This document shows positions 83 to 19,066 of a DNA stretch of 32,000 nt, piece by piece (within the stretch, counting starts at the first letter, position 1; the number at the start of each line of letters is the position of its first letter). The DNA comes from Candidatus Pelagibacter sp. HTCC7211 (lineage in GTDB: Bacteria; Pseudomonadota; Alphaproteobacteria; Pelagibacterales; Pelagibacteraceae): contig NZ_DS995298.1 of NCBI RefSeq assembly GCF_000155895.1, positions 810,001-842,000 on the forward strand, in the 5' to 3' direction. The notes beneath the pieces were generated by a model. It saw nothing but the letters and a program-made list of their open reading frames with translations, had not been told where the DNA came from and made no database searches. Position numbers and translations under genes: made by a program.

Positions 83-427
83 CTACTCAATACCAGTATA
101 ATTTGGAATAATTTCATATCCTCCATCTAGTTTTTCACAAGCGAGCGATCTATATTCAACTGGTATATAACCCTCCAGACCAGTCCATGTATAATATTTA
201 CATTCTTTAGCTATGCCTGCATCCTGTAAGAAATGTTTAACACCATCATCGCATTCAACAATTTCTTGATTTTTTTCACTTATAACTTTTCCATTTTCAT
301 CAACGGTTCTAATAAGTGAAGTTTTAATATTGCAGTATTGATTTTCTTGATTAGCTGAATGAGCTACATCAAAATAAGCTAACCAAACAAAATATCCTAG
401 CACAATAATTATAATATTTTTAATCAA
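83..427 (-). CDS. small secreted Cys-rich hypothetical protein (114 aa)
   Basis: ORF track. N-terminal hydrophobic signal-like segment (IIIIVLGYFVWLAYFDVAHSA) and 6 Cys. 8-nt overlap with the upstream gene 420..992 suggests one operon. Confidence 0.5.
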   Translation of the reverse strand: MIKNIIIIVLGYFVWLAYFDVAHSANQENQYCNIKTSLIRTVDENGKVISEKNQEIVECDDGVKHFLQDAGIAKECKYYTWTGLEGYIPVEYRSLACEKLDGGYEIIPNYTGIE

Positions 428-992
428 TATTTTTTAATACCTCCTTAACTTTTAATTTTAATTTATTAGGTTTTTTATTAGCCAGAACTAATTTTCTTTC
501 GGCTTTGATATCACTTAATACAACATCAATATCTTCTTTTGAAACTTTAACCTTAACGTAAGCTCGATAAGATTTGTGATGAGTAAAAAATATTTCAACT
601 TGTTCAACAACATAATCTTTAACTAAAGTATCACTGATTTTATTAACAACTGTATCCTCAGCTTGACCTGTAATATTATTATCTTCATCAATTCCAACCT
701 CTTCTTTAGTAATACTAGTCTGATTATTCATTTTACCATTAATACGGTCAGCTAGTTTTGCTTTGGCTAAAAGAGTTGATTTTTTTATGGCTAATTCAAG
801 GTCTGGAGAAACACTCGATGCTGTTTCATACATCCAATTCTTATCTTCACGTTTAAATTTTATATACCATTTAGGTGTTTTTGTTAGCTCACCTTTTTTT
901 GTCATGTCCCTTTTAACTGTATAGGTTGAACATTGAGCTAAAAATAAAGTTAATGATGAAACAATTAAAATTTTAAAAATATTTCTTATCAT
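420..992 (-). CDS. putative lipoprotein, possibly LPP20-like (190 aa)
   Basis: ORF track. Signal peptide ends in a lipobox-like LFLAQ-C (Q at -1 is atypical). Its start overlaps the stop of gene 992..1279. The family call is by eye only. Confidence 0.5.
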   Translation of the reverse strand: MIRNIFKILIVSSLTLFLAQCSTYTVKRDMTKKGELTKTPKWYIKFKREDKNWMYETASSVSPDLELAIKKSTLLAKAKLADRINGKMNNQTSITKEEVGIDEDNNITGQAEDTVVNKISDTLVKDYVVEQVEIFFTHHKSYRAYVKVKVSKEDIDVVLSDIKAERKLVLANKKPNKLKLKVKEVLKNID

Positions 993-1279
993 TATTTTTC
1001 ATCCAATCTTGGAAAATCAGAAAAAAAACCAGAAAGTTTATTTTTTACTATTTTTACATTTTTATTGTTTTGGTTTTTTACCTCTTTCCAACTTCTTATT
1101 TGAAAATCTTTAGTCTCTTCAACTTCTTGATTTATGCATTCCCAAAAGAGGTTGAATTTTTCACTAAGTTTATTAATATTATTTTCATCAGCATATATTG
1201 GTTGGATTAACATCAAAATTGCTGACAAAGTAATTATTATTTTTTTTACCATTTTATCCTTTTTTATTGAGTTTTTCAT
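992..1279 (-). CDS. small secreted hypothetical protein (95 aa), first gene of a 3-gene minus-strand operon
   Basis: ORF track. Hydrophobic N-terminus (IIITLSAILMLIQPIYA). ATG at 1279 lies exactly 6 nt after a -10-like hexamer of the operator-linked promoter. Confidence 0.55.
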   Translation of the reverse strand: MKNSIKKDKMVKKIIITLSAILMLIQPIYADENNINKLSEKFNLFWECINQEVEETKDFQIRSWKEVKNQNNKNVKIVKNKLSGFFSDFPRLDEK

Positions 1280-1285
1280 ATTTAG

Positions 1286-1313
1286 ATATTTGCATGAATT
1301 TCTATTTCGTCAA
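1286..1313 (-). promoter_or_regulatory. promoter TTGACG-N16-AAATAT, then N6-ATG (leaderless geometry) for the 1279..83 operon
   Basis: Read on the minus strand: TTGACG (1313..1308), 16-nt spacer, AAATAT (1291..1286), 6 nt, ATG (1279). Same register as the promoters at 7043 and 8581. Confidence 0.6.
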
Positions 1314-1323
1314 CTAGAGGAGC

Positions 1324-1351
1324 AGTGAAATGTTTACAATCTAATTTCACT
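1324..1351. promoter_or_regulatory. operator copy 1: AGTGAAAT-N12-ATTTCACT palindrome in a divergent promoter region
   Basis: Exact 8-bp inverted half-sites with a 12-bp spacer. It lies 10 nt from TTGACG of the minus-strand promoter and overlaps the -35/spacer of the plus-strand promoter for 1368. Confidence 0.75.
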
Positions 1352-1361
1352 TAGGTATGAT
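1333..1361 (+). promoter_or_regulatory. promoter TTTACA-N17-TATGAT, then N6-ATG for gene 1368..1850; buried inside operator copy 1
   Basis: TTTACA 1333..1338 lies in the operator spacer. TATGAT is at 1356..1361 and ATG at 1368. No Shine-Dalgarno sequence is visible. Confidence 0.55.
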
Positions 1362-1367
1362 AAAACT

Positions 1368-1850
1368 ATGTCAGGCTATTCTAGAAAATTAGTTTCATTA
1401 GAAATTACACTCAAAGAAATTATAAAAGATTTAAAAGCAGATGCTTTAAAAGAAATTACTGGTAAATCTGAATCTCATTTTAGAAAATGTAGTGATGAGA
1501 ATGATACTCAAGATATCCATCATATAGATTCAATTAAAATTGATATTGAGTGTTTAAAAAGAGGTTTGGGTAATCCAATGTTAAGTGCTCACGAAGATAT
1601 GTTGGAATCAACCAGTCCAGAGTATAAAAATTTAGATAATGTATCAAATACCTTAATTAACATTGGAGCAAAAATAGGTAAATTGATGGAAACTACTCAA
1701 AAAGCTACTAGCCCTAAAGGAGAAGGGGGCAGTAAAATTTCTGAAAGTGAAAAAAAACATATTAGTAAAGCTCTTAATGATGTTGAAGATAAAATATTAG
1801 AATTAAAACTTATTATTGAAAGATCCAATAAACTTAGTGAAATTAAATAG
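1368..1850 (+). CDS. hypothetical protein, candidate CII/CP76-like DNA-binding regulator (160 aa)
   Basis: ORF track. HTH-like segment ALKEITGKSESHFRKCSDEN. Its own promoter is overlapped by the operator, and its 3' end contains half of operator copy 2. The functional call is an inference. Confidence 0.6.
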   Translation: MSGYSRKLVSLEITLKEIIKDLKADALKEITGKSESHFRKCSDENDTQDIHHIDSIKIDIECLKRGLGNPMLSAHEDMLESTSPEYKNLDNVSNTLINIGAKIGKLMETTQKATSPKGEGGSKISESEKKHISKALNDVEDKILELKLIIERSNKLSEIK

Positions 1851-1863
1851 ATAACATTTCACT
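1836..1863. promoter_or_regulatory. operator copy 2: AGTGAAAT-N12-ATTTCACT
   Basis: Exact half-sites. The first half lies in the last codons of CDS 1368..1850. It is followed after 10 nt by TTGACG (1874..1879). Confidence 0.7.
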
Positions 1864-1940: not shown

Positions 1941-2672
1941 TTGAATAATTGTGAAATAAAGATGAAGACTGATTACAGAGATATTGTTAAGCTAAATTCG
2001 ATGAAAGATAAAACTGAAATGTTTAACTATTCTCCAAGTGAATTTGCCTTCGGTTTTGAGAGTTGTAAAAGATGTTATTATGATAAAAAAGTAAATAGTA
2101 TTGAACTAAAAGTTCCTTTTCCAGGAATATTCTCAAAATTTGATAGTTTACAAAAAAATTTTTATCACGGCAAATCAAGCAAAACTCTAACTGATAATCT
2201 TGAAGAGGGTGAAATTGTAGGTGATTTTAATAAAATGTTAAGATCAGAAGTTTTATATGATCTTAAAGATAGACCATTTACCATGAGTGGTAAAATAGAT
2301 GCTTATATTAAACATAAAGACTCATTCACTATAGTAGATTTTAAAACTACAAAAATTAATGAGAGTAAAATTGATGCTTATGCAACCCAGCTTCAAAGCT
2401 ATGCATTAATGATGGAAAAACCTAAAGAAGGTAGCTTAAAACTTACTCCAATAAAAAGATTAGGTATCTTTTGTTTTGAGCCAAGTAATATTTCAAGAGC
2501 AGAGAGTAATAATTGCAACATTCATATGGATACACAGTGGTATGATATACCAAGAGATGACAAAGATTTAATTGGTTATATTACCAAAATTCAAGATGTT
2601 TTATATTCTAAAGAAACTCCAGAGTCTGGATCAAGTTGTGGAATATGTAATTTTAGAAAGGTAATGAAATAA
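1941..2672 (+). CDS. PD-(D/E)XK nuclease, Cas4/RecB-like, with 4 Cys (243 aa)
   Basis: Motifs: GKIDAY, IVDFKTTK (D-x-K) and QLQSYALMM (QxxxY). CKRC near the N-terminus and CGIC near the C-terminus fit an Fe-S/Zn cluster pattern. TTG start at 1941 follows AAGGA; alternative ATG at 1962. Confidence 0.7.
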   Translation: MNNCEIKMKTDYRDIVKLNSMKDKTEMFNYSPSEFAFGFESCKRCYYDKKVNSIELKVPFPGIFSKFDSLQKNFYHGKSSKTLTDNLEEGEIVGDFNKMLRSEVLYDLKDRPFTMSGKIDAYIKHKDSFTIVDFKTTKINESKIDAYATQLQSYALMMEKPKEGSLKLTPIKRLGIFCFEPSNISRAESNNCNIHMDTQWYDIPRDDKDLIGYITKIQDVLYSKETPESGSSCGICNFRKVMK

Positions 2673-2968
2673 TGCAAAAACTTTCTAATTCTGAAGTTAA
2701 AGTTACAGAAGTCATTAGTTTTATTTTAGAACAATATAGAAATGAAAAAGTTAATCATGATCTTGAAGTTGCATCTGAATTAATTCTTATTGCTAGAATT
2801 CTTCATCAAAGATTTAAAATTTCAAATGGAACACAGGTTAAAGAGGATAAATCTGTTGTTTTAGCTAAAAATGAAATTCTTAAAGAAATTAAGGATGACG
2901 AATATTATGAGCTTATTAAAAACTTTATAAAAGATTATCGACAATTCAGAGATAAAAACGTAAATTAA
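2672..2968 (+). CDS. hypothetical helical protein (98 aa)
   Basis: ORF track. The ATG overlaps the stop of the upstream nuclease gene (TAATG), indicating translational coupling. Confidence 0.55.
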   Translation: MQKLSNSEVKVTEVISFILEQYRNEKVNHDLEVASELILIARILHQRFKISNGTQVKEDKSVVLAKNEILKEIKDDEYYELIKNFIKDYRQFRDKNVN

Positions 2969-2973
2969 TATTC

Positions 2974-5535
2974 ATGTGGAAGTTCATTAAGTACAGCTTC
3001 AATAAAGCTTTTGAGAAAAATTTATTAAATTTAATAATTTTTTTTATTGCACTTAGTTTTATTGGAGTATTTGTAATATCAACAGTAATTTTTATATTTC
3101 AAAAAATTGGACTTTTATCAGAAAATAACTTTTTTACAGAAACACTATGGCAAGGATTTAGGTTATTTTTTGATCAAAATGCTATTTTTGTTCTTGACAG
3201 TAATAAAAATAATTTTTTTGATTTCTTATTAAAGTTTAACCTTACCATATTTGGTGTTTTAATATTTTCTTCAATTATTGGAATTGTCACAAATTTTATA
3301 TCAGGAAGAATAGAATCGTTAAGATCTGGTAAAACCAAAATTGAAGAGGAAAATCATATTATTTTTTTTAATTTTTCTAGAAGATTAATTCCACTATTAA
3401 CTGAGTTATGTAATGCTTATGTAAAAGAAAAGCAGTCTTTTGTAATTGTAAGCACTGAAGAGCCTTTAACAGTAATGGAAAAAATAAATAGTGTTGTCAA
3501 AATTCCAAAAAATATAACGATAGTTGCTAGGAAAGGTTATGCTTGGCAAAAAAGTCTGCAAGATAGAATTAATTTAGAAAAAGCAAAACAAATTATCATT
3601 TTAAAACCAGATGCAGGTGTGACTTATAAAACTGAACTAGATTGTGATGTTGAGGTTGGAAAAAGTTTAGCATCACTACTTGCAAGTAAACATTGGGATA
3701 TAAATCCATGTAAGGTCTTAGCTGAGTTTCATGATGAAAAAAGAGGCTTTTTATACCTTTATTATTCAAAAGATATCATTGTTAAAAAAATGGAACAGAA
3801 GGGTAATACTTGGCAAGATCCAGATATCATCAGTTCATCAAATTTAAAAAACTCTTTATTAGCACAATGCACTAATACACCTGATCTATCAGAAATTTAT
3901 GACAACTTATTTGGTTATGAGGGATCAGAAGTTTACTTTGTTGATCCAAAGAATGAAAAATATTCTGAAATTCTTAAAAAAAACCAAGGCAAAACTATTA
4001 AAGATTTAAATGCTTTATGTGACAACATAATAATTATTGGATTTTTCCAAGATGATCAAAGACACAACTTAGGTTGGAATAAACTTTTTATTAATAGTCC
4101 AATAGATTTTCCTTTATCAGATAATTTTGGAATTATTTGTGTTGCTAAAGATGAAGACCAAATAATTAATGAGTTAAACAATATAGATAATCAAAGTAAA
4201 GAAGTTGCAGATATTTCACCTAATTTTAAAGAAGATAATAAGGATATAAATGTTTCAATGTTTGATTATAGTAAGGAGAATAACAATCTCTATCTTACTA
4301 GTCTAATCAACTCTATTATTGATAGTAACTATTATAATAATCTAAAAAGTCTTAAAGTTTACAGAGATAAATTTAATGGCAGTTTAACTGATAAAAAGTT
4401 TTTACCAGCTGCACCTGATTATAAAATTAATAAAGATGAGGTTAACCACCCTTTATTAGGAATTATATTTCATATTTTAAAAACTGAGGAAAAAAATAAG
4501 TTTGGTTTTCAAATATACTCAATCAATAAACAATCATCTTTAAGTGAAAAATTAAGCTCAGGAGATACTATTTTAAATATAGCATCAAAATCAGAAGCAG
4601 AGAGTCTTAAAGGAAAATCTGAAATTGAATTATCTTATAAATCTGCACCAGGAGGTGCTCATAAAAAATTTAAAGAAAAATTAATTAAATTAATTAATGA
4701 AAATGAAGAAGTTATTTTAATTGTTAAAAAATCTAGTTCTAAAGACATAGAGTTTATTGAAATTAAAAAAGATCAAATATCAAAAGATCAACAGCAAATT
4801 CATCAATCATTTGAAGAGATACAGTCGAACCGTCAACAAATGATCAAAGATCTTAATGATAATGTAACCTTTGAAGAAAAGAACTTAGAGGATGTTACAA
4901 AAGACATGAGTATGGGCACAGTAATGGAGTATGAAAAAGATAATTGTTATATCTTCTTTAATGAAACTAACCAACAGATCCAAAAGTTTAGAGAAAACCC
5001 TACAGAAGACCATGTAATGATTAATAATTTTGTTGGATTTTCAAACTTAAGACTAAGTGATGGTAAAATGGCAGATCATTCAATGATTACTGAGATTAAT
5101 GGATATAGAAGTAAAAAAATCCTAGAAGACTATAAAGCAAAGTACTTTAGTCCTTATATAGGCAATGATGTAATTGAATTGAATTCAATTGTGAGTAAAT
5201 ACTTAGCTGCAGGTACATTTGATATTAAAAATACTAAACTAATTGATCTTCTCTTTAGTAGAACACATACTGTTAAAGCTCACACATTAGTTGATAAAGA
5301 ATTAACAGCTACATTTTGTGAATTAGAAAAATACTTTCAAAATAAAAATGAAACCTTAATTGGAATAATTGACTATGAATTTGATAAGGATCAAAGACGA
5401 AAAATTAAAAATATATCAATTAACCCTAAGCAAACTGAAAACATTAAATTAGATCAAGGGGATCGATTAATAACTATTGCAAACTTTAATGATTTAGAGA
5501 TAGTTAATCAAAGTAGATATTTACACATATTATAA
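2974..5535 (+). CDS. CASTOR/POLLUX(DMI1)-like RCK-domain cation channel homolog with an inserted middle domain (853 aa)
   Basis: N-terminal TM helices. The segment TLWQGFRLFFDQNA...ESLRSGKTKIEEENHIIFFNFSRRL matches, by eye, the pore/filter-to-RCK junction of CASTOR (ALWLSWTFVADSGNHA...DSLRKGKSEVIEKNHILILGWSDKL). Colinear matches continue through both RCK-like halves to the C-terminus. Confidence 0.65.
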   Translation: MWKFIKYSFNKAFEKNLLNLIIFFIALSFIGVFVISTVIFIFQKIGLLSENNFFTETLWQGFRLFFDQNAIFVLDSNKNNFFDFLLKFNLTIFGVLIFSSIIGIVTNFISGRIESLRSGKTKIEEENHIIFFNFSRRLIPLLTELCNAYVKEKQSFVIVSTEEPLTVMEKINSVVKIPKNITIVARKGYAWQKSLQDRINLEKAKQIIILKPDAGVTYKTELDCDVEVGKSLASLLASKHWDINPCKVLAEFHDEKRGFLYLYYSKDIIVKKMEQKGNTWQDPDIISSSNLKNSLLAQCTNTPDLSEIYDNLFGYEGSEVYFVDPKNEKYSEILKKNQGKTIKDLNALCDNIIIIGFFQDDQRHNLGWNKLFINSPIDFPLSDNFGIICVAKDEDQIINELNNIDNQSKEVADISPNFKEDNKDINVSMFDYSKENNNLYLTSLINSIIDSNYYNNLKSLKVYRDKFNGSLTDKKFLPAAPDYKINKDEVNHPLLGIIFHILKTEEKNKFGFQIYSINKQSSLSEKLSSGDTILNIASKSEAESLKGKSEIELSYKSAPGGAHKKFKEKLIKLINENEEVILIVKKSSSKDIEFIEIKKDQISKDQQQIHQSFEEIQSNRQQMIKDLNDNVTFEEKNLEDVTKDMSMGTVMEYEKDNCYIFFNETNQQIQKFRENPTEDHVMINNFVGFSNLRLSDGKMADHSMITEINGYRSKKILEDYKAKYFSPYIGNDVIELNSIVSKYLAAGTFDIKNTKLIDLLFSRTHTVKAHTLVDKELTATFCELEKYFQNKNETLIGIIDYEFDKDQRRKIKNISINPKQTENIKLDQGDRLITIANFNDLEIVNQSRYLHIL

Positions 5536-5542
5536 TAAACTA

Positions 5543-5740
5543 ATGACTAAGTATGACCTTAAAAATAAGCTAAGATTACAATTAAGTGATGATATGAGGG
5601 AATTTGCGATAATAAATAATTTAACTGAACAAGATGTAATAAAAATTAGAGACAATAATTTGATACCTCAACCCCATCTAGGTTTTTTAACTGCATTATT
5701 AAAAGATAAACATTTTGAATTCTATAAAGAGGAAAAATGA
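5543..5740 (+). CDS. small hypothetical protein, possible short HTH (65 aa)
   Basis: ORF track. REFAIINNLTEQDVIKIRDNN resembles an XRE-type helix-turn-helix. The stop overlaps the next start (ATGA). Confidence 0.5.
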   Translation: MTKYDLKNKLRLQLSDDMREFAIINNLTEQDVIKIRDNNLIPQPHLGFLTALLKDKHFEFYKEEK

Positions 5741-6306
5741 CTGACGAGAATAAAATAGAAAACCTTGATGAAAGAATTAACTTAATTAAAAGTGCTTTTG
5801 AATTTTCTGAAGCAAAATGGATAGAGCCATTAGAAACAACCGAAGGAGATATTGTTGATCAAAAAATAAATACCAAAATAAGAGGAATGTATTATTTCTA
5901 TGAAAATAATTTTTATTTGGGTATTTCTTCAAAAGGAACTATTTATGATAGACACAAAACACATAAACCAAAATTTGATGTTGATTTACATCTTTTGTGG
6001 AAAAATCATTGGGACTTCTCAAAAGTTTGGCAAGAAGGTGTAAAAAAATTTTATCTAGAAAAAGATCCAGGGCCTATTCCATTTATTAAAAGAATTAATA
6101 AAGATCACAAACCTTATGCTGAAGAATTTACATTTCCAGTAATACATAAAATTAATACTGATAAAATCAAAGTTTTAATATGGAATATGGATCATTTACC
6201 TCCATGGCAAATTGAAATGATAGAAAAAATTGCAATATATAAGCTATGGCCATATTGTAATGATGAAACAAGCAGGAGGAGACAATATGAAAATAGACAT
6301 CTATAA
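5737..6306 (+). CDS. GIY-YIG domain protein (189 aa)
   Basis: GMYYFYENNFYLGISSKGTIYDRHKTH (GIY...YLG...R..H), then later EMIEKIAIYKLWPYCN (Glu/Asn of the GIY-YIG core). The GIY-YIG spacing is shorter than canonical. Confidence 0.55.
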   Translation: MTDENKIENLDERINLIKSAFEFSEAKWIEPLETTEGDIVDQKINTKIRGMYYFYENNFYLGISSKGTIYDRHKTHKPKFDVDLHLLWKNHWDFSKVWQEGVKKFYLEKDPGPIPFIKRINKDHKPYAEEFTFPVIHKINTDKIKVLIWNMDHLPPWQIEMIEKIAIYKLWPYCNDETSRRRQYENRHL

Positions 6307-6943
6307 ATCAAAATTTTTTATATTTATGGATTTTACTCAAGCAGAGATTATGGAAATGTCTTTTTCTAAAAATAGTGATTCAGAAAAAAAAATTCTTAGA
6401 GAAGGAAAAAAACATTCAAAAGAAATGACTAAATTATTTGATATAATAATTGATCCTTTTAAAAAAAATGGTCTTGACCAAACAGCTGAAAATAAAAAAC
6501 ATATATCTAGTTTAAAAAAGTATAAAAAAGAATATGAAGACATGTTTAACTACACTCCAAATCAAATGAGAAAATGGACAAGGAAGCTTTTATTGTTAAA
6601 AAAAAATATAATAGAAAAATTTATTCTTGAACAGCACCCAATAAAGAAATGCACCTATAGATATATTAATCCAATGCAAATAGGATTTTATGAACATTTT
6701 AAAATAGGACTAAATCACAAGGAGCCTCAAAAAAAAACAAAGTTTAATAAAGATATTCACTATGGACATCAAATAACAGTAGAGTTTAAAAATAATAATA
6801 AAGCAAATCAATTGAAAGATAAAAAAAAAGCTATAAATTTAAAAAATAAATTTGAAAAGTTTTATAATAAAAAATTTCTTACCCCATATAAATTTAATTT
6901 ATTTAATTTTGAAGATAAGATTGTAATTTCTAACTTGAATTAA
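6287..6943 (+). CDS. Lys-rich basic hypothetical protein (218 aa)
   Basis: The track ORF 6230..6943 was trimmed to the ATG at 6287, which follows a strong AGGAGGA (6273..6279). Overlaps the upstream gene by 20 nt. Confidence 0.55.
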   Translation: MKIDIYKSKFFIFMDFTQAEIMEMSFSKNSDSEKKILREGKKHSKEMTKLFDIIIDPFKKNGLDQTAENKKHISSLKKYKKEYEDMFNYTPNQMRKWTRKLLLLKKNIIEKFILEQHPIKKCTYRYINPMQIGFYEHFKIGLNHKEPQKKTKFNKDIHYGHQITVEFKNNNKANQLKDKKKAINLKNKFEKFYNKKFLTPYKFNLFNFEDKIVISNLN

Positions 6944-7004: not shown

Positions 7005-7032
7005 AGTGAAATTTATCATTAAAAATTTCACT
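7005..7032. promoter_or_regulatory. operator copy 3: AGTGAAAT-N12-ATTTCACT
   Basis: Exact half-sites, 10 nt upstream of TTGACG 7043..7048. Confidence 0.75.
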
Positions 7033-7042
7033 CCCACCTGAG

Positions 7043-7070
7043 TTGACGGATTACACTTTTGCCTTATGAT
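7043..7070 (+). promoter_or_regulatory. promoter TTGACG-N16-TATGAT, then N6-ATG (leaderless geometry) for gene 7077
   Basis: TTGACG 7043..7048, TATGAT 7065..7070, ATG 7077. Near-identical to 8581..8608. Confidence 0.65.
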
Positions 7071-7076
7071 TAGTTT

Positions 7077-7637
7077 ATGAATACATTTAAATCTAACGAA
7101 GAAAATACTATCAGTAACTTTGTTTCAATTAACGAAGTAATTAACTATGAACCACCAAAATATATTCCTAACTGGGATGGTAGCTTTAATAAGATTAAAA
7201 GTGGTAAAAGCTCATACTTTAGACCCAATAAAGAGTTTTCTATTTTTAATATAAATATTATTAACAGTAACTCATTAAGATTAGATGCAAAATCTGAAGG
7301 TATTTATATTATCTTAAGTGAAAAGTTTAATTTCTTTTATGTTGGAAAAACCTTATCTAATATAAAACAAAGATTACACTCACACATACAAAAGCTTACC
7401 TCAACAAATAACAATAGGTATACAACACCTCTTAAATGGCAAAAGTTAGCATTTATCAGATATAATGCTTTAAAAGAAGAAAGTGTAAAGTTAGATGATC
7501 TTAAGATTAAATTTTATCATTCATCTGAATATTCAATGTGCAGTATTGATGAGCTAGAAAATAATATATATCTAAAATATAAAGCTTTATTGCCCAAATA
7601 CATATCATTGAATGATCCAAAGGCGCTTGAAAGTTAA
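7077..7637 (+). CDS. GIY-YIG nuclease domain protein (186 aa)
   Basis: Canonical GIYIILSEKFNFFYVGKTLSNIKQRLHSH (GIY-N10-YVG...R..H) followed by IDELENNIYLKY (catalytic Glu/Asn region). Confidence 0.7.
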   Translation: MNTFKSNEENTISNFVSINEVINYEPPKYIPNWDGSFNKIKSGKSSYFRPNKEFSIFNINIINSNSLRLDAKSEGIYIILSEKFNFFYVGKTLSNIKQRLHSHIQKLTSTNNNRYTTPLKWQKLAFIRYNALKEESVKLDDLKIKFYHSSEYSMCSIDELENNIYLKYKALLPKYISLNDPKALES

Positions 7638-7730: not shown

Positions 7731-7991
7731 ATGACAGATATATACAAAAAAATAACTGAGCTTAACTCCAAGTATGGTAATGATTCTTCTGAATTTGAAG
7801 AAGAATTAACTGAGCACCTTAAGAAGAAGTTTCCTGAACAATATAAATTATCATTGAAAGATCTTAAAAATGATGGTTCAGATGATCCTGAAATGGAAAT
7901 GACACCAGGTAGATTTGCAGATCATATTGGTGATAAAAGTGAAGAGTTATTGAAAGAATATGAAGCTATTCTAAAAAAACTTAATGGATAA
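7731..7991 (+). CDS. small acidic hypothetical protein (86 aa), paralog of 8248..8523
   Basis: ORF track. Shares EEEL..(H/K)LK..F.E.YK...(D/E)L.N...PG....I.D with the product of 8248..8523. Confidence 0.55.
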   Translation: MTDIYKKITELNSKYGNDSSEFEEELTEHLKKKFPEQYKLSLKDLKNDGSDDPEMEMTPGRFADHIGDKSEELLKEYEAILKKLNG

Positions 7992-8001
7992 AATAGGATA
8001 A

Positions 8002-8244
8002 ATGGCTTTTGAATATAAAAAACTTGGTAAACTTCAAGATCATTTAGAAGCAGAAGCAACTGACTGGATAGAAAATTATATCAAGGACCTACATGGAGTT
8101 AATGATTCGGTAGAGCTTACAAAAGAACAAATAAGTGAAATTGATAAAGCAGCTGAGGATGAGAAATTAGATATCTATGTAGGTTTAGCACTGAGAAATA
8201 TAGTTCAAGCTTGGTATGACCATAACGAACCCGATACTCTTTAA
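8002..8244 (+). CDS. small acidic hypothetical protein (80 aa)
   Basis: ORF track. Its stop is 3 nt from the stop of the convergent gene 8248..8523. Confidence 0.5.
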   Translation: MAFEYKKLGKLQDHLEAEATDWIENYIKDLHGVNDSVELTKEQISEIDKAAEDEKLDIYVGLALRNIVQAWYDHNEPDTL

Positions 8245-8247
8245 AAC

Positions 8248-8523
8248 TTAGTTTTCTAAATTATCAAACCAATCATTAACAATAGTTAAAGCATTAGCTT
8301 GATCAGCTTCAGGCAAATCTTCTATATAAGCTGATATAGTTCCAGGTGATGGTATTTCTTCTTCTGGATTATTAAGTTCATTAGCTGCAATTTTATAACT
8401 TTCACCAAAACTTTCTTTTAACTTTTTTGCTAATTCTTCCTCAAGAGATGTTGCATTGCCTGGACTGTTATTATTGTAAATTTTGTCCATTACTTCATTA
8501 ACTCTGTTACGTAAATTTCCCAT
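8248..8523 (-). CDS. small acidic hypothetical protein (91 aa), paralog of 7731..7991
   Basis: ORF track. Its upstream region runs into operator copy 4, with possible TTAATT-N16-TATATT overlapping the operator. Confidence 0.55.
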   Translation of the reverse strand: MGNLRNRVNEVMDKIYNNNSPGNATSLEEELAKKLKESFGESYKIAANELNNPEEEIPSPGTISAYIEDLPEADQANALTIVNDWFDNLEN

Positions 8524-8542: not shown

Positions 8543-8570
8543 AGTGAAATTGTTCAATTAACATTTCACT
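8543..8570. promoter_or_regulatory. operator copy 4: AGTGAAAT-N12-ATTTCACT in a divergent promoter region
   Basis: Exact half-sites, 10 nt upstream of TTGACG 8581..8586. On the other strand it overlaps the putative promoter of 8248..8523. Confidence 0.75.
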
Positions 8571-8580
8571 CCTAGCTTGG

Positions 8581-8608
8581 TTGACGGATTAGGTTTCTGT
8601 TTTATGAT
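8581..8608 (+). promoter_or_regulatory. promoter TTGACG-N16-TATGAT, then N6-ATG (leaderless geometry) for gene 8615
   Basis: TTGACGGATTA...TTATGATTAGGTTATG parallels 7043..7079 almost base for base. Confidence 0.65.
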
Positions 8609-8614
8609 TAGGTT

Positions 8615-8806
8615 ATGAAAACATATAAACCTTTTAAGTTAAAAATAAAAAAAAAATCTACCTATAAACCAATACGTTTTAAAAAGCCTAAACCTTATAA
8701 AAGGGGCAGGTTATTAAAAAATGGTATTACTCAGCATATGAGAGTTTCAATTACAGGTAGACGTTATTGGACACCGATTATCACTAAAATAGATCGTCCA
8801 GACTAA
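8615..8806 (+). CDS. very basic small hypothetical protein (63 aa)
   Basis: ORF track. Lys/Arg/Pro-rich (KLKIKKKSTYKPIRFKKPKPYKRGR). First gene after operator copy 4. Confidence 0.45.
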   Translation: MKTYKPFKLKIKKKSTYKPIRFKKPKPYKRGRLLKNGITQHMRVSITGRRYWTPIITKIDRPD

Positions 8807-8824
8807 TAATTTTTTCATAAAAAA

Positions 8825-9112
8825 ATGAATAATAGTTTTAGATTCGAGACTAATTTTAATAATCCAATACTCTATGAAGTTATTTTCTTAAATGACCAAG
8901 TTACTACAATCGAATTTATAATCCGAGTTTTAAAACATATTTTCAATAAGGAACATAAACATGCTCTTAAACTTACCAGAAAAATTCATGAAGAAGGATA
9001 TGGAGTTGTTGGGTCATATATTTATGAAATTGCAGGACAGAAAGAATTAGAAACAAGTTTGATGGCAAGAGATGAAAATTTTCCTTTAAGAGTTGTTATA
9101 AAAATAAAATAA
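8825..9112 (+). CDS. clpS: ClpS-like ATP-dependent Clp protease adaptor (95 aa)
   Basis: YEVIFLNDQVTTIEFIIRVLKHIF...ALKLTRKIHEEGYGVVG...PLRVVI is colinear with the ClpS core (VILLNDDYTPMEFV..VL...F...A...M..VH..G.A.CG). Confidence 0.75.
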   Translation: MNNSFRFETNFNNPILYEVIFLNDQVTTIEFIIRVLKHIFNKEHKHALKLTRKIHEEGYGVVGSYIYEIAGQKELETSLMARDENFPLRVVIKIK

Positions 9113-9178
9113 CTTCTTTTTAAATTAAATAAAATTTAAAATAGCTGATAAATAAATTAAATATGTTATATTTGGTTT

Positions 9179-9328
9179 ATGAAAACATATAGAATTAGAG
9201 TAAGAATTGCTGGTGGAAGAATAGTTGATATTGAAATTCAAGCACCTGATGTACATGCTGCGTTAAACATGGCTAAATCACAATATGGTGAAGGCAATGT
9301 CCTAAGTGCTCCAATATTGGTAAGATAA
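9179..9328 (+). CDS. small ORF family member (49 aa), below the track size cutoff
   Basis: Manual translation: MKTYRIRVRIAGGRIVDIEIQAPDVHAALNMAKSQYGEGNVLSAPILVR. Paralog at 10951..11106; truncated copy at 13173..13262. Confidence 0.5.
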   Translation: MKTYRIRVRIAGGRIVDIEIQAPDVHAALNMAKSQYGEGNVLSAPILVR

Positions 9329-9332
9329 CAAA

Positions 9333-10184
9333 ATGAAGTTTAAAATTGTACCTACTAGACAATATGACATCAGCAAGTTCACAAAAGGTGAGCAAGAAAT
9401 TTGGGTACATGTAAATTGGGGTTATTGTGAAGCTGATGAGTTAAATGTATACAGCAGTGATTTGTTTGAAAATTGTACATCGATCGAACAAGTACAAAAA
9501 GTTGTAGATGATACAGTCAGTAAATGTAAGACAGTTACAAAAAATACCGATTTAGATAATTACGAAGAATATTGGAAAGACAGTCTGGAAACCGATGTGT
9601 ATGACAGCGCTGAATTAGGAGAAGCGCTCAAACTTGATTATGAGGTATTGCTGAATACAACATCAAGTGGTGGTACAAATTGTGAAATAATTTTTCATAA
9701 AAATGTATCAGATGAGGAATTCAACAAAGAACTAGACAATGATGGAGAAATTATCACACTCGAAGATGCCGCAAATATTTGGAGAGACGAAGTATTATCA
9801 AACGATGGTTGGTTGGAAAGCACAGATACTTATTATCAAGCACCACTTAAAGTCGTCAATGTGTTGAGTGAAAAAGAACAAGCTGAGTTAGAAGCAAGTG
9901 CAGAATATCAATTTAACAAGAACGAAAGTGCTAAACGATGGGCAAGTAAGATTAACATTTTATTCATGGACAAAAAACCAGAAACAACTGAGGTCGAAAA
10001 ACTACAAAAACAACTTAGTAATGTTAAACAAGAAGATTTAGATCTTATATTGCGTTACTATGAACAAAAACATGGTGATACGGAATTTAAAGGTGGTGGG
10101 ATTAAAAAAATAGATAATAATAAAAAAATTGAATTTTTAAAAAATTTAAAACAACAGAAAAGCAAAGAAATAAGAGTTAATTAA
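9333..10184 (+). CDS. acidic hypothetical protein (283 aa)
   Basis: ORF track. No recognisable motifs. Confidence 0.55.
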   Translation: MKFKIVPTRQYDISKFTKGEQEIWVHVNWGYCEADELNVYSSDLFENCTSIEQVQKVVDDTVSKCKTVTKNTDLDNYEEYWKDSLETDVYDSAELGEALKLDYEVLLNTTSSGGTNCEIIFHKNVSDEEFNKELDNDGEIITLEDAANIWRDEVLSNDGWLESTDTYYQAPLKVVNVLSEKEQAELEASAEYQFNKNESAKRWASKINILFMDKKPETTEVEKLQKQLSNVKQEDLDLILRYYEQKHGDTEFKGGGIKKIDNNKKIEFLKNLKQQKSKEIRVN

Positions 10185-10472
10185 ATGAGCAATAAAGAAG
10201 ATGAATTGTTTAAATTTGTCAAAGAATGGGAAAATAAAGATTATAATGAGTTTAACAGAAACTTTGAAGCCTTTGTGGAAAAATTAGAATTATCTTATGA
10301 GGAAACAAAAGAAATTTCATTATCCTTAGACGCAGAATCTTATAAAGATGGTAGTCCAAATTCAGGCAGTGCTCACTTGCAATATGCCGCTGACTTTTTT
10401 GTAATGATACTTGAAGATTACGATAATAATAATGAGTCAGATGATTCAAGAAAATATTTGATTAATGAATGA
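10185..10472 (+). CDS. small acidic hypothetical protein (95 aa)
   Basis: ORF track. Starts 1 nt after the previous stop. Possible distant relative of the 7731/8248 family (SYEETK...DGSPNSGSAHLQYAADF). Confidence 0.5.
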   Translation: MSNKEDELFKFVKEWENKDYNEFNRNFEAFVEKLELSYEETKEISLSLDAESYKDGSPNSGSAHLQYAADFFVMILEDYDNNNESDDSRKYLINE

Positions 10473-10876
10473 CAGACGATAAGAAAACTCTTTTTAATAA
10501 ATTAGAGAGCATTAATGAAGAAGCGCATAATTATGCTTACAATTTGTGGGAAGAAGCAGGCAGACTAGAAGATGAGCATGGATATACTGATGAAGTTGAA
10601 GAGAAAAAAATATTAGCTAGTGATGAACAAGCATCATCATTTAAAGAAATTTTTAATAAAGAGCTAACTATTGAACAAAAAAAATTATTTTGGAAATTAG
10701 TAAAAAATGCAGATCAAGATCCTGATAGAGGTTTAATTGAACAATATTTAGATTGGTTTTGCAACAATTCTGAAAGAATGAAAATATGCTTAATTAAAGA
10801 AATGAGCAAATTAGCCACCAACCAATATTTTGCAGACCTTTTTCAAATTAAAAACTTTAATTATTTGGAAGATTAA
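10469..10876 (+). CDS. hypothetical protein (135 aa)
   Basis: ORF track. ATGA overlap with the upstream gene. Confidence 0.5.
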   Translation: MTDDKKTLFNKLESINEEAHNYAYNLWEEAGRLEDEHGYTDEVEEKKILASDEQASSFKEIFNKELTIEQKKLFWKLVKNADQDPDRGLIEQYLDWFCNNSERMKICLIKEMSKLATNQYFADLFQIKNFNYLED

Positions 10877-13583: not shown

Positions 13584-13734
13584 TATAGGATAACTTGCAC
13601 AAGACTTGTACATGAGGAGATAAAATAAAAAAAATTTACTTATTAGCCTTGTTCAATTATAAATATTAGCATAAACACTCATGAAATTCATTAATGCCCT
13701 CGTGGTGAAATTGGTAGACACAAAGGACTTAAAA
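13584..13734 (+). repeat. direct repeat DR-L: junction motif + tRNA-Leu promoter region + 5' 39 nt of tRNA-Leu
   Basis: 13639..13734 is identical by eye to 15458..15553; 13584..13638 is diverged. The tRNA part (13696..13734) stops at the anticodon loop (CTTAAAA). Confidence 0.85.
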
Positions 13735-13757
13735 GGCGAGGGATAGAAGTTAAAGTC

Positions 13758-13970: not shown

Positions 13971-14336
13971 GTGAGTTTAAAAAAAAAGTTACTATGTAGT
14001 GTAGCAGTTGCCACTGTAGCTATACCTTTATCATTAAACAATATTACTTCTTCTGCTAAAGCTGAATCTTGCTACTCCCTTGGTAACTCAATTTATTGCA
14101 GTGATGGTTTTAGCGCCTATTCTCTTGGAAACTCGGTTTATGGTAATGATGGTTATAGTTCATACTCTTTAGGTAACTCAACTTATGGCAATGATGGTTT
14201 TAGTTCCTATTCTCTTGGAAACTCGGTTTATGGTAATGATGGTTTTAGTGCCTATTCTCTTGGAAACTCGATTTATGGTAATGATGGTTTCAGTGCCTAT
14301 TCTCTTGGAAACTCTATATATAGTTTTGGCAATTAA
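13971..14336 (+). CDS. secreted repeat protein, 5.8 copies of the 15-aa unit YSLGNS(I/V/T)YGNDG(F/Y)S(A/S) (121 aa)
   Basis: GTG start. Sec-type signal (LLCSVAVATVAIPLSLNNITSSAKA|E). The whole mature part is G/N/S/Y-rich repeats. Confidence 0.6.
   Translation: MSLKKKLLCSVAVATVAIPLSLNNITSSAKAESCYSLGNSIYCSDGFSAYSLGNSVYGNDGYSSYSLGNSTYGNDGFSSYSLGNSVYGNDGFSAYSLGNSIYGNDGFSAYSLGNSIYSFGN
14073..14333 (+). repeat. in-frame 45-bp tandem DNA repeat (about 5.8 units)
   Basis: Units such as TATTCTCTTGGAAACTCGGTTTATGGTAATGATGGTTTTAGTGCC repeat head-to-tail with a few substitutions. Confidence 0.9.
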
Positions 14337-15402: not shown

Positions 15403-15553
15403 TATAGGATAACCAGCACAAGACCAGCACACAGAGATATAAAATAAAAAAAATTTACTTATAGGTCTTGTTCAATTATAAATATTAGCATAAACACTCA
15501 TGAAATTCATTAATGCCCTCGTGGTGAAATTGGTAGACACAAAGGACTTAAAA
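15403..15553 (+). repeat. direct repeat DR-R (partner of 13584..13734), continuous with intact tRNA-Leu
   Basis: See DR-L. Preceded by the perfect palindrome TCCTATA-aag-TATAGGA (15393..15409). Confidence 0.85.
15454..15482 (+). promoter_or_regulatory. candidate tRNA-Leu/nadK promoter TTTACT-N17-TATAAA
   Basis: Good hexamers and spacing about 35 nt upstream of the tRNA. The same element is duplicated at 13635..13663. Confidence 0.4.
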
Positions 15554-15600
15554 TCCTTGCCGCTTGCGGAGTGCCAGTTCGAGTCTGGCCGAGGGCACCA
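15515..15600 (+). tRNA. tRNA-Leu (anticodon UAA)
   Basis: Manual cloverleaf: acceptor GCCCTCG/CGAGGGC, anticodon loop CT-TAA-AA, long variable arm, T-loop TTCGAGT, encoded CCA. Confidence 0.9.
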
Positions 15601-17685: not shown

Positions 17686-17736
17686 TGGTGCCCCCGCACG
17701 GATTCGAACCGCGGACCTATTGATTACAAATCAATT
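17686..17736 (-). repeat. exact copy of the 3' 51 nt of tRNA-Thr (att-like site 2)
   Basis: TGGTGCCCCCGCACGGATTCGAACCGCGGACCTATTGATTACAAATCAATT is identical to 20935..20985. Confidence 0.9.
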
Positions 17737-17826: not shown

Positions 17827-18417
17827 ATGAAGCGAAATGGTTTCACATTAATAGAACTCTTAGTCGTAGTAGCAATCATCGGTATACTTGCTGCAGTGGG
17901 TGTTGTTGCTTATGATGGTTATACTAGTATTGCAAAAGATAATGCTGTTAAGGTAAATTGTAAACAAGTTGCTTCAGAGATAGGTTCGAAGTTTGGTTTT
18001 TGTGCAATGAATCCTGGATCATCTATACAACTAAAATCAATTGGTGGAAGACAAACCATAGAAAATGTTCAATGTGATAAAAATAAAACCAGTACAGGAC
18101 AGATGTTAATCAAAATAGTTAATCATTTAAATAATGAAGGTTATAAAAATCCTTATGGACATAATAGTGGTACAGAAGGTGTTCATAATGGACCCGGTGC
18201 CTATCAAGCAAGTTCTGGACTTTGGTGGCAAGATTTAATGATTAAAGGAAATAGCTATGATAAGTTATCACTAGGTAGATGTGTAGTGCAATATCATACC
18301 AATGGAGATATTGGTGTTACAGGTTTTTTTGATGCGGGAACTTTTAAAGCAAATGGTCGTGACCTTTCAGAAGCATTGCAATGGACACAATTAATCATGA
18401 CAGCTGATACTAGATGA
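17827..18417 (+). CDS. type IV pilin-like / pseudopilin protein with prepilin N-terminal motif (196 aa)
   Basis: MKRNG|FTLIELLVVVAIIGILAAVGVVAY is the canonical prepilin cleavage/methylation domain. Confidence 0.85.
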   Translation: MKRNGFTLIELLVVVAIIGILAAVGVVAYDGYTSIAKDNAVKVNCKQVASEIGSKFGFCAMNPGSSIQLKSIGGRQTIENVQCDKNKTSTGQMLIKIVNHLNNEGYKNPYGHNSGTEGVHNGPGAYQASSGLWWQDLMIKGNSYDKLSLGRCVVQYHTNGDIGVTGFFDAGTFKANGRDLSEALQWTQLIMTADTR

Positions 18418-18914
18418 AACAAAAAGGTTTCACCCTAATAGAACTCTTAGTCGTAGTTGCAATCATCGGTATTCTCGCTGCAGTAGGTGTGGTTGCTTAT
18501 AGTGGATATACGAGTGGTGCAAAGAAATCTGCCATTAAATCAAATTTTAAAACTGTAGAAAAATATACATCTGCTGAATTAATGAAGTGTCAAATAGGTC
18601 AAACAGATATTTTTATAAACTCTGGATCAAATAAAGTTAGTTGTAGTGGTGTAGATAATCCAGGTAGAACTTATACAGCAATGGTTTTTGATCCTAGTCT
18701 TAGATTCTTAAATCCAATTAATAATGGAATTGGAAATAGAGCTGACCAACATGTATTAAGAAACGATGTTTATAAAGGATCAAACATACCAGACAACATG
18801 ACTGGTTATATTTTTTTAAATTTCGGATCAACTTGGCCAGCAACTATGAGATCTTGTATTGAGGCACCTTGTTCAAATCCAAACAACATCTTAACTTCAA
18901 GTATTAATTATTAG
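18414..18914 (+). CDS. type IV pilin-like / pseudopilin protein, paralog with divergent C-terminus (166 aa)
   Basis: MKQKG|FTLIELLVVVAIIGILAAVGVVAY. ATGA overlap with the upstream pilin gene. Confidence 0.85.
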   Translation: MKQKGFTLIELLVVVAIIGILAAVGVVAYSGYTSGAKKSAIKSNFKTVEKYTSAELMKCQIGQTDIFINSGSNKVSCSGVDNPGRTYTAMVFDPSLRFLNPINNGIGNRADQHVLRNDVYKGSNIPDNMTGYIFLNFGSTWPATMRSCIEAPCSNPNNILTSSINY

Positions 18915-18972: not shown

Positions 18973-19018
18973 AAGATTAGTTCCTGCATAGATATTTTAT
19001 ATGAAAAAGTAAGTGAAG

Positions 19019-19066
19019 TGGTGCCCCCGCACGGATTCGAACCGCGGACCTATTGATTACAAATCA
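19019..19066 (-). repeat. exact copy of the 3' 48 nt of tRNA-Thr (att-like site 3)
   Basis: Identical to 20935..20982. The 6 nt beyond the tRNA end (GTGAAG, 19013..19018) also match 20929..20934. Confidence 0.9.

What the first reader, a model, noticed from the sequence alone, without database searches (positions are those of the whole stretch)
1941..6943. Operator-controlled six-gene operon (Cas4-like nuclease, small protein, RCK cation channel, small HTH, GIY-YIG protein, basic protein): candidate novel defence or abortive-infection module
The genes are tightly coupled (TAATG at 2672, ATGA at 5737, a 20-nt overlap at 6287). They combine a PD-(D/E)XK Cas4/RecB-like nuclease with 4 Cys, an 853-aa ligand-gated-type membrane channel, a GIY-YIG domain protein and two small proteins. 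All lie inside a flexible island next to tRNA integration hot spots. Nucleic-acid-sensing or cleaving components paired with a membrane-permeabilising effector are a recurring design in anti-phage systems. I do not recognise this particular combination as any named system. It could equally be a phage or satellite-derived replication/recombination module.
Basis: inference. Interest (0 to 1): 0.75.

Follow-up and report, generated by a model that had tools for sequence, protein, structure and literature searches.

The report
Regulator-controlled nuclease–channel operon in SAR11
The six genes are a real, tightly packed operon in the marine bacterium Pelagibacter HTCC7211, but only its front part (a Cas4-like nuclease, a 98-residue partner and usually a CASTOR-type ion channel) recurs in other strains, and it is one of five units switched by a phage-186-CII-like regulator whose purpose, possibly phage defence, is unproven.

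Summary
The observation largely holds. There are six co-oriented, translationally coupled ORFs. They include a Cas4-like PD-(D/E)XK nuclease, a CASTOR/DMI1-type tandem-RCK channel and a basic 218-aa protein. A GIY-YIG call for the 189-aa protein is not supported; the true GIY-YIG gene lies outside the finding, at 7077-7637. An operator exists: the 26-bp palindrome GTGAAAT-N12-ATTTCAC occurs four times in the window (0.06 expected), in front of five transcription units. It is conserved in related Pelagibacter loci. The likely regulator is the upstream 160-aa protein (1368-1850), which resembles phage 186 CII.

Co-occurrence across about 110 related loci splits the operon. The nuclease and the 98-aa protein are a constant pair. 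The channel follows them in about two thirds of nuclease-anchored loci and is cleanly absent in others. The 65-aa gene is clade-restricted. The 189- and 218-aa genes were found only in this strain. Nuclease orthologues also sit alone in a carnitine/betaine metabolic context.

No component matches a known defence system. Neighbouring cassettes in other strains include PD-T4-3-like, Mokosh-like and Ssp/Dnd-like genes. All core genes are under purifying selection, and no viral relatives were found. Defence is plausible but unproven.

The parts
992..1279 (-). 95-aa secreted protein, first gene of the leftward unit (95-aa, 190-aa lipoprotein, 114-aa, then a prepilin-type gene beyond the window edge)
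   Evidence: On the minus side of operator 1 lies the same N11-TTGACG-N28-ATG layout as at units 3 and 4. 22 of 41 related loci keep TTGAC[AG] at N10-13. The prepilin domain in the same cluster is shown.
1325..1350 (.). Operator 1, GTGAAATGTTTACAATCTAATTTCAC. It sits in the divergent region between the 95-aa gene and the regulator gene. The -35 (TTTACA) of the regulator promoter lies inside its spacer.
   Evidence: An operator sits at this junction in 23 non-redundant related loci.
1368..1850 (+). 160-aa regulator candidate (PB7211_595), phage 186 CII-like. Its promoter ends TATGAT-N6-ATG, so the mRNA is probably leaderless.
   Evidence: Pfam Phage_CP76 is sub-threshold in 5 of 11 orthologues, best E 0.003; PHROG 101 CII-like gives E 0.07. 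The AF2 model has pLDDT 74, and its top four PDB fold hits are 186 CII (6vli/6vpe; E 0.24-0.8, best probability 0.93, TM 0.31-0.38). The top viral fold hit is a 'Regulatory protein' at E 0.05. The gene is linked to the nuclease in most loci, in either orientation.
1837..1862 (.). Operator 2, GTGAAATTAAATAGATAACATTTCAC. It overlaps the regulator stop codon and is followed after 12 nt by TTGACG (1875-1880), the putative -35 of the operon in the finding.
   Evidence: An operator lies upstream of the nuclease gene in 60 related loci, and 36 of 61 keep TTGAC[AG] at N10-13.
1962..2672 (+). Cas4/RecB-like PD-(D/E)XK nuclease, 236 aa (alternative TTG start at 1941)
   Evidence: dN/dS is 0.03-0.09 in pairs with enough divergence.
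2672..2968 (+). 98-aa helical partner protein with no known family, translationally coupled to the nuclease
   Evidence: It follows the nuclease in 67 of 81 informative loci. Only 37 clusters in 1.84 billion representatives match it, all about 100 aa. dN/dS is 0.06-0.17.
2974..5535 (+). 853-aa CASTOR/DMI1-type channel: TM1, pore helix and TM2 (residues 2-118), then a tandem RCK ring. It has no GYG filter; the pore loop reads LFFDQNAIF.
   Evidence: It is optional in related loci.
5543..5740 (+). 65-aa protein, clade-restricted cargo
   Evidence: It is present only after channels of at least 74% identity (L013, L014, L015, L031, L035, L041, L046 and others). It matches no family.
5737..6306 (+). 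189-aa strain-specific protein with a GMY..YLG motif only; GIY-YIG assignment not supported
6287..6943 (+). 218-aa basic (pI 9.8) strain-specific protein
7006..7031 (.). Operator 3, followed by N11-TTGACG-N16-TATGAT-N6-ATG. It marks the end of the operon in the finding.
7077..7637 (+). 186-aa true GIY-YIG protein, first gene of unit 4 (followed by 86-aa and 80-aa acidic proteins up to 8244)
   Evidence: Pfam PF01541 gives 9.7e-8 and 32.6 bits against a cut-off of 22.6. It recurs in related loci.
8544..8569 (.). Operator 4, followed by N11-TTGACG-N17-TATGAT-N6-ATG of the 63-aa gene
8615..10876 (+). Unit 5: a 63-aa very basic protein, a ClpS-like adaptor (8825-9112), then 49-, 283-, 95- and 135-aa proteins
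   Evidence: ClpS at 1e-21. Synteny is shown.

Best explanation
The finding is the second transcription unit of a five-unit accessory regulon. The regulon lies in a variable region of Candidatus Pelagibacter sp. HTCC7211.

Shown. A 26-bp palindrome (GTGAAAT-N12-ATTTCAC) lies in front of each of five units: the leftward lipoprotein/prepilin cluster, the 160-aa regulator gene, the nuclease operon, the GIY-YIG unit and the ClpS unit. At four of them it has a fixed geometry, operator-N11/12-TTGACG. At the regulator gene it overlaps the promoter itself.

Inferred. The 160-aa phage-186-CII-like protein binds these sites. It limits its own synthesis and co-regulates the other units, most likely by activating them.

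Shown. The operon is modular. It has a constant 5' pair (Cas4-like nuclease plus 98-aa partner), an optional CASTOR-type cation channel, and a 3' cassette slot. In this strain the slot holds the 65-, 189- and 218-aa genes. Elsewhere it holds other genes, including PD-T4-3-like GIY-YIG nucleases.

Inferred, with low certainty. The regulon is an inducible programme for conflict with foreign DNA or phage. The nuclease/partner pair would act on DNA ends. The channel, where present, would add a membrane-potential or cation-flux output. It is not a self-contained six-gene system.
For: Operator. Four exact copies occur against 0.06 expected. They share flanking promoter geometry. Copies are conserved at the same gene junctions in 80 of 115 related loci.

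Regulator. The sequence HMM and the predicted fold both point first to 186 CII. [quoted passage not shown] Here the half-site centres are 19 bp apart.

Modularity. Searches show it. Mosaic dS between adjacent genes indicates recombination between modules.

Function retained. All core genes are under purifying selection, with dN/dS 0.03-0.17, and the catalytic residues are invariant.

Conflict context. PD-T4-3-like genes lie directly after the channel in L005 and L016 (3.6e-15 and 9.7e-10). Mokosh-like genes lie in L025 and SspD/DndC-like genes in L018. In the L008 lineage the nuclease is coupled to a second, GLIC-like membrane protein.
Against: No binding or expression data exist, and activation versus repression is not resolved. 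The TTGACG/TATGAT promoters are near consensus and might not need an activator.

The CII assignment is sub-threshold: Pfam E is 0.003 at best and Foldseek E is 0.24.

No component other than the generic Cas4 fold matches a defence model. The island lacks typical sensors such as STAND or ATPase proteins.

Nuclease orthologues occur without operator, partner or channel in a metabolic gene cluster. The channel occurs without the nuclease in L018. The regulon also holds a ClpS gene and secreted lipoproteins, which fit a stress or envelope programme equally well.
Confidence: 0.5

Rival explanations
1. One reading: all six genes form one dedicated anti-phage or abortive-infection system. A nuclease sensor or effector is paired with a channel effector, and three accessory proteins complete it.
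For: Tight translational coupling in this strain. The operon sits in a variable region with tRNA-associated islets. The design resembles systems that pair a membrane effector with a DNA-binding or nuclease partner, such as Kiwa (PMC11785009).
Against: The 189- and 218-aa genes are absent from all of about 110 related loci, including relatives with 90-96% channel identity. The 65-aa gene is clade-limited. There are no PADLOC hits for five of the six proteins.
Confidence: 0.05
2. A domesticated remnant of a temperate phage or satellite early region: a CII-type regulator, a Cas4-like recombination exonuclease, GIY-YIG homing-type endonucleases and small acidic early proteins. It would now be fixed at this chromosomal site with no unified cellular function.
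For: The regulator resembles 186 CII. The promoters look leaderless and phage-like. Several GIY-YIG paralogues and many small acidic ORFans are present. Mosaic recombination is evident.
Against: No integrase, replication or structural genes were found. No relatives occur in IMG/VR or in 50,697 phage genomes, at either the protein or the operator level. The position beside the same lipoprotein/prepilin cluster is conserved across lineages with only 59% channel identity. Purifying selection is strong. No att repeats bracket the 1.3-13.6 kb region.
Confidence: 0.2
3. Ordinary host physiology. A cation-homeostasis channel and a DNA-repair nuclease happen to share an operon within a stress or envelope regulon (with ClpS, lipoproteins and a pilin). 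There is no link to phage.
For: The channel is a canonical-looking RCK-gated channel under purifying selection. A nuclease orthologue sits in a metabolic cluster. ClpS and envelope genes belong to the regulon. SAR11-wide vertical synteny is seen.
Against: The channel and the whole regulon show presence/absence polymorphism, and only 13 GTDB species representatives carry the channel by pattern scan. The nuclease is linked to a channel-type membrane protein in three different architectures. Known defence-type genes occupy the same cassette slots.
Confidence: 0.2

Closest known systems
Stand-alone Cas4 / RecB-family PD-(D/E)XK nucleases (Pfam PF12705, TIGR00372)
   Same: The motifs GxxD, (D/E)xK and QxxxY are present and invariant, and conserved cysteines flank the nuclease core.
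   Different: No cas1, cas2 or CRISPR array is present. The cysteine pattern is CxxC...C...CxxC, not the 1+3 pattern I recall for Cas4/AddB. TIGR00372 scores 39 bits against a cut-off of 65. The protein is always paired with a SAR11-only 98-aa protein.
CASTOR/POLLUX/DMI1 and MthK/Slo/GsuK RCK-gated channels
   Same: A 2-TM pore is followed by two RCK domains. The best fold match is to the CASTOR and DMI1 gating rings.
   Different: It is bacterial and has a roughly 200-residue beta-rich insertion in the second half. It has no GYG. Its pore loop (FDQN, or VTE in one clade) differs from the CASTOR ADAGNH motif as I recall it. The Pfam Castor_Poll_mid hit is below the gathering score (22.1 against 26.7).
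Phage 186 CII and its pE promoter
   Same: It is a small helical regulator whose best sequence and fold resemblance is to 186 CII. The target is an inverted repeat with half-sites about two helical turns apart, next to or across the -35 (PMC6593788).
   Different: It is chromosomal with no phage around it. It controls five units rather than one promoter. Half-sites lie at about -49/-68 at three promoters and about -21/-40 at its own, instead of -38/-58. The similarity is below family thresholds.
Defence systems that pair a membrane protein with a DNA-acting partner (for example Kiwa KwaA/KwaB)
   Same: A membrane-embedded oligomeric protein is encoded next to a DNA-directed protein in a variable island (PMC11785009).
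   Different: There is no sequence or profile similarity. The membrane part here is a bona fide RCK channel and is dispensable in a quarter of loci. No phenotype is known.
PD-T4-3 / CMoRE, a single-gene GIY-YIG type IV restriction enzyme
   Same: Genes in the cassette slot right after the channel in L005 and L016 match its N-terminal GIY-YIG domain at 3.6e-15 and 9.7e-10 (PMC12923530).
   Different: Only the GIY-YIG domain aligns (profile positions 12-107 of 256). The window's own slot genes (189 and 218 aa) do not match it.

Membership tests
Cas4 / RecB-like PD-(D/E)XK nuclease | Catalytic motifs D...(D/E)xK and QxxxY | tested here: met
   D113, D126-F-K128 and Q143...Y147 are invariant in 20 homologues. 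PF12705 scores above its gathering score.
Cas4 / RecB-like PD-(D/E)XK nuclease | Four-cysteine Fe-S cluster in the canonical pattern (one N-terminal Cys plus a C-terminal CX2CX5C; from my knowledge of Cas4/AddB) | tested here: inconclusive
   The conserved cysteines are C35-x2-C38, C171 and C226-x2-C229. The spacing differs and metal binding cannot be tested.
CRISPR-associated Cas4 | Neighbouring cas1/cas2 genes or a CRISPR array | tested here: not met
   No Cas models hit neighbouring proteins. No CRISPR-like repeat array occurs in the window. TIGR00372 scores below its cut-off.
CASTOR/POLLUX/DMI1-type RCK channel | Tandem RCK1-RCK2 gating ring | tested here: met
   Foldseek gives E 6e-16 and TMt 0.72 to 6o7c, 6o6j and 7vm8. 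A profile hmmsearch gives 2e-5.
CASTOR/POLLUX/DMI1-type RCK channel | N-terminal pore module (TM, pore helix, TM) | tested here: inconclusive
   Helices 2-45, 53-66 and 81-118 are predicted, but with pLDDT below 50 in a monomer model.
K+-selective channel | T-V-G-Y-G selectivity filter | tested here: not met
   The pore loop reads LFFDQNAIF, or LFFVTEAFF in one clade, with no GYG.
GIY-YIG nuclease (claimed for the 189-aa protein) | Significant match to a GIY-YIG profile | tested here: not met
   No hit in four libraries. hhalign probability is 0.27% over 18 columns.
Phage 186 CII (Pfam Phage_CP76) regulator, for the 160-aa protein | Profile match above the family threshold | tested here: inconclusive
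   5 of 11 orthologues match, best E 0.003, all below the 26-bit cut-off. The top PDB fold hits are 186 CII but at E 0.24.
Phage 186 CII (Pfam Phage_CP76) regulator, for the 160-aa protein | Binds an inverted repeat with half-sites two helical turns apart at a promoter | not testable with these tools
   A matching site type is present and conserved, but binding was not measured.
Any named anti-phage system (PADLOC-DB 2.0) | The system's signature proteins are present together | tested here: not met
   Only generic Cas4/DruK-type nuclease hits were found for one protein, and nothing for the other five.
   The 189- and 218-aa genes occur in 0 related loci, the 65-aa gene in one clade only, and the channel is absent from 11 nuclease-p98 loci.

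The most novel reading that the evidence does not exclude
A SAR11-specific inducible immune regulon. An unstable, 186-CII-like activator would switch on a Cas4-like nuclease/98-aa sensor pair. That pair would work with exchangeable ion-channel effectors (CASTOR-type RCK, or a GLIC-like channel in another lineage) and exchangeable GIY-YIG restriction cassettes to stop pelagiphage infection. This would be the first defence system built on an RCK-gated channel, and a major defence locus of the ocean's most abundant bacterium.
Probability: 0.18. Interest if true: 0.85.

Novelty: new variant of a known kind. Interest (0 to 1): 0.5.

Why it matters
SAR11 is the most abundant bacterial lineage in the ocean. 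It is noted for minimal transcriptional regulation, and how it copes with phages is debated.

A conserved multi-promoter regulon with a defined operator and a phage-type regulator is a concrete, testable regulatory circuit in a cultured strain, HTCC7211. If the nuclease/partner pair and the RCK channel act in phage conflict, this would add a new effector class (a gated cation channel) to bacterial immunity. It would also give a handle on SAR11-pelagiphage dynamics.

If it is a stress or envelope programme instead, it still defines one of the few SAR11 regulons. It also shows how cassette slots inside an operon generate strain-level diversity.

Tried and rejected
- My first synteny table used a frame-shifted nuclease query (start 1964). 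Its nuclease identities are invalid and were redone.
- Viral origin. The channel, nuclease and regulator have no relatives in IMG/VR. The region has no blastn match in 50,697 phage genomes. Four proteins have no tblastn match there. The operator-plus-TTGACG pattern has no hit in viral contigs.
- Remote homology for the 98-aa protein. It has no Pfam, PHROG, NCBIfam or PADLOC hit and no PDB hit. Only 37 SAR11-like clusters match in 1.84 billion representatives.
- A nuclease profile search against PDB sequences found nothing at E of 0.1 or better.
- Pfam on the channel's middle insertion and on the C-terminal part of the L008 674-aa protein gave nothing useful.
- Att-type repeats around the main island: none were found. 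Only a downstream 1.8-kb insert and the tRNA-Thr islets are bracketed by partial tRNA copies.
- Rfam found only tRNAs. The terminator scan found none at the operon end.
- Diversifying selection on p98 or the nuclease was rejected; dN/dS is 0.17 or lower in all pairs with enough divergence.
- The literature search found no description of this locus, and no paper containing both 'RCK domain' and 'anti-phage defense'.
Full report
**Source and setting.** The window is about 27% GC and carries tuf-secE-nusG-rplKAJL-rpoB and five tRNAs. The 160-aa protein encoded at 1368-1850 is 100% identical to PB7211_595 of Candidatus Pelagibacter sp. HTCC7211. Contigs carrying the identical 853-aa protein reproduce the locus. 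The finding lies in a variable region between a lipoprotein/prepilin cluster (83-1279, minus strand) and tRNA-Leu at 15515.

**Checking the observation.**
- All six ORFs and their junctions are as described. The best starts are ATG 1962 for the nuclease and ATG 6287 for the last gene; the latter has AGGAGG 8 nt upstream.
- The nuclease is a Cas4/RecB-like PD-(D/E)XK protein. Its catalytic residues are invariant and its cysteines conserved across 20 homologues.
- The 853-aa protein has many full-length Pelagibacter homologues at 56-91% identity.
- An AlphaFold2 model of the 853-aa protein (pLDDT 67; low in the membrane part) best matches the LjCASTOR and MtDMI1 gating rings (E 6e-16, TM 0.72). 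Slo1, Slo2.2, MthK and GsuK follow. A profile search of PDB sequences also hits CASTOR and DMI1.
- The channel has no GYG filter. Its pore loop is LFFDQNAIF in most homologues and LFFVTEAFF in one clade, so K+ selectivity cannot be assumed.
- The 218-aa protein is basic, pI 9.8.
- The 189-aa protein is not a demonstrable GIY-YIG protein. Four libraries give no hit, and hhalign against the local GIY-YIG family gives probability 0.27%. The true GIY-YIG gene is the next one, 7077-7637.
- The 65-aa and 98-aa proteins match nothing.

**The operator.** GTGAAA-N14-TTTCAC, in full GTGAAAT-N12-ATTTCAC, occurs four times in the 32 kb window against 0.06 expected. The sites are 1325-1350, 1837-1862, 7006-7031 and 8544-8569.
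- Sites 3 and 4 are followed by N11-TTGACG-N16/17-TATGAT-N6-ATG. Site 2 is followed by N12-TTGACG, then a weaker -10 and a leader carrying a Shine-Dalgarno sequence.
- Site 1 is palindromic and serves two promoters. On the minus side it has N11-TTGACG-N28-ATG of the 95-aa gene. On the plus side the -35 of the regulator promoter lies inside the operator.
- The pattern recurs at the same gene junctions in 80 of 115 related loci. It lies upstream of the nuclease gene in 60 non-redundant loci and at the regulator or 95-aa junction in more than 40. It also precedes a DUF4116 gene, the GIY-YIG gene and the 63-aa gene.
- The operon of the finding is therefore bounded exactly by operators 2 and 3. It is one of five co-marked units.

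**The regulator.** The 160-aa protein gives sub-threshold but repeated matches to Pfam Phage_CP76, in 5 of 11 orthologues with best E 0.003, and to PHROG 101. Its model (pLDDT 74) has phage 186 CII (6vli, 6vpe) as its top four PDB fold matches, though weakly (E 0.24-0.8, TM 0.31-0.38). The top viral fold match is a 'Regulatory protein'. 186 CII is an unstable HTH activator that binds an inverted repeat two helical turns apart at -38/-58 of pE (PMC6593788). Here the half-site centres are 19 bp apart. Binding itself is inferred, not shown.

**Co-occurrence.** I gathered loci anchored on the channel and on the nuclease, then compared them by tblastn.

| Architecture among informative loci | Loci |
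|---|---|
| Nuclease, p98, channel in that order | 56 |
| Nuclease then channel, p98 not detected | 3 |
| Nuclease-p98 followed directly by the downstream GIY-YIG or 86-aa genes, no channel | 11 |
| Nuclease with a channel elsewhere in the locus, in another arrangement | 4 |
| Nuclease with neither p98 nor channel | 7 |

- Among nuclease-anchored loci only, about 42 of 62 have the channel immediately downstream.
- The seven loci with neither partner include orthologues at 67-70% identity that sit alone between a 4HBT thioesterase gene and a BKACE gene of a carnitine/betaine cluster. These have no operator.
- The regulator gene is adjacent to the nuclease in most loci, in either orientation.
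- The 65-aa gene occurs only after channels of at least 74% identity.
- The 189- and 218-aa genes occur in no other locus. In relatives with 91-96% channel identity the same slot holds strings of small acidic proteins plus a 300-320-aa protein with a GIY..YIG-like motif.
- Identity is mosaic. L032 has 86% channel identity but 57% nuclease and 41% p98 identity. L005 shows the reverse: 59%, 81% and 83%.

**Selection.** NG86 dN/dS in pairs with enough divergence is 0.03-0.09 for the nuclease, 0.06-0.17 for p98, 0.05-0.16 for the channel and 0.04-0.11 for the regulator. These values are similar to the flanking genes. dS is discordant between adjacent genes. These are functional genes shuffled by recombination, not decaying remnants or fast-diversifying proteins.

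**Evidence bearing on a defence role.**
- Against: PADLOC finds only generic Cas4/DruK-type hits for the nuclease and nothing for the other five proteins. There is no CRISPR array.
- Against a viral origin: no relatives of any part were found in viral collections.
- For, by association: a PADLOC scan of 140 proteins from the same islands in other strains found PD-T4-3-like GIY-YIG proteins, Mokosh-like helicase/PLD proteins and SspD/DndC-like proteins.
- The PD-T4-3-like genes sit directly after the channel in L005 and L016, at 3.6e-15 and 9.7e-10. The Mokosh-like genes lie near the nuclease in L025.
- The Ssp/Dnd-like genes flank the channel in L018. PD-T4-3 is a validated GIY-YIG type IV restriction enzyme (PMC12923530). 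These matches cover domains only and could be generic.
- For a nuclease-channel link: in L008 and L009 the nuclease orthologue is translationally coupled to a 674-aa membrane protein. That protein's best PDB match is the pentameric channel GLIC, including a YPFDxQ motif, at E 0.065; Pfam finds nothing. The CASTOR-type channel lies across a divergent region with the regulator. In L028 a 935-aa Castor-like gene lies 3.6 kb from the nuclease. Three architectures thus keep a channel-type protein near this nuclease.

**Interpretation.**
- Best supported: a modular operon inside a regulator-controlled accessory regulon. It has a constant nuclease/p98 pair, an optional RCK channel and a cargo slot.
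- Its purpose is unresolved. A role in conflict with foreign DNA or phage is my leading guess.
- Credible rivals are a domesticated mobile-element early region and a stress/envelope programme.
- The six-gene defence system as proposed is not supported as a unit.
- I found no prior description of the locus, and no paper containing both 'RCK domain' and 'anti-phage defense'.

Noticed in passing
window 13648-13737 and 15467-15556: A direct repeat of about 90 bp covers 48 nt upstream of tRNA-Leu(taa) plus its first ~41 nt. It brackets a 1.8-kb insert holding three ORFs, one of them a repeat protein with a 45-nt x 5.6 tandem array at 14072-14321. No integrase was seen.
   Followed up: partly
window 17686-17736, 19012-19066 and 20935-21010: The 3' half of tRNA-Thr(tgt) has two extra direct copies, plus a degenerate one near 16400. 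They delimit tandem islets, one of which carries two prepilin genes (17827-18914). This is the signature of repeated integration at this tRNA.
   Followed up: partly
L008/L009 4852-6876 (minus strand): A 674-aa membrane protein is translationally coupled to the nuclease orthologue. Its best PDB sequence match is the pentameric ligand-gated channel GLIC (E 0.065, with a YPFDxQ motif and TM1-TM3). Pfam finds nothing. It may be a second channel class paired with this nuclease.
   Followed up: partly
L072 2064-2841: Three tandem paralogues of the 98-aa protein (86%, 66% and 44% identity) follow the nuclease gene.
   Followed up: no
window 1356-1370, 7065-7079, 8603-8617 and 1277-1292 (minus strand): Four of the five regulon promoters end with a -10-like hexamer, exactly 6 nt, then ATG. 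This suggests leaderless mRNAs. Only the nuclease operon has a leader with a Shine-Dalgarno sequence.
   Followed up: partly
L018 3961-9739: A channel orthologue lacking the nuclease sits beside a PAPS-reductase-like gene (SspD/DndC-like), a cysteine desulfurase gene and an 863-874-aa methyltransferase-like gene. This looks like an Ssp/Dnd-type DNA phosphorothioation cluster.
   Followed up: partly
L025 1-3137: A helicase (MkoA-like, 8e-20) and a PLD nuclease (MkoC-like, 5.5e-15) lie about 5 kb from a nuclease orthologue. That orthologue is preceded by a 97-aa p98-like gene and followed by relatives of the lipoprotein cluster.
   Followed up: partly
window 7731-8523: The 86-aa gene (+ strand) and the 91-aa gene (minus strand) encode paralogous small acidic proteins at 34% identity. 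Both recur in related islands, and their function is unknown.
   Followed up: no
window 2974-5535, protein residues ~480-650: The channel carries a confidently modelled beta-rich insertion (pLDDT 80-93) in its second RCK half. This is the least conserved part of the protein and matches no family. It may be a ligand or partner-binding module.
   Followed up: partly
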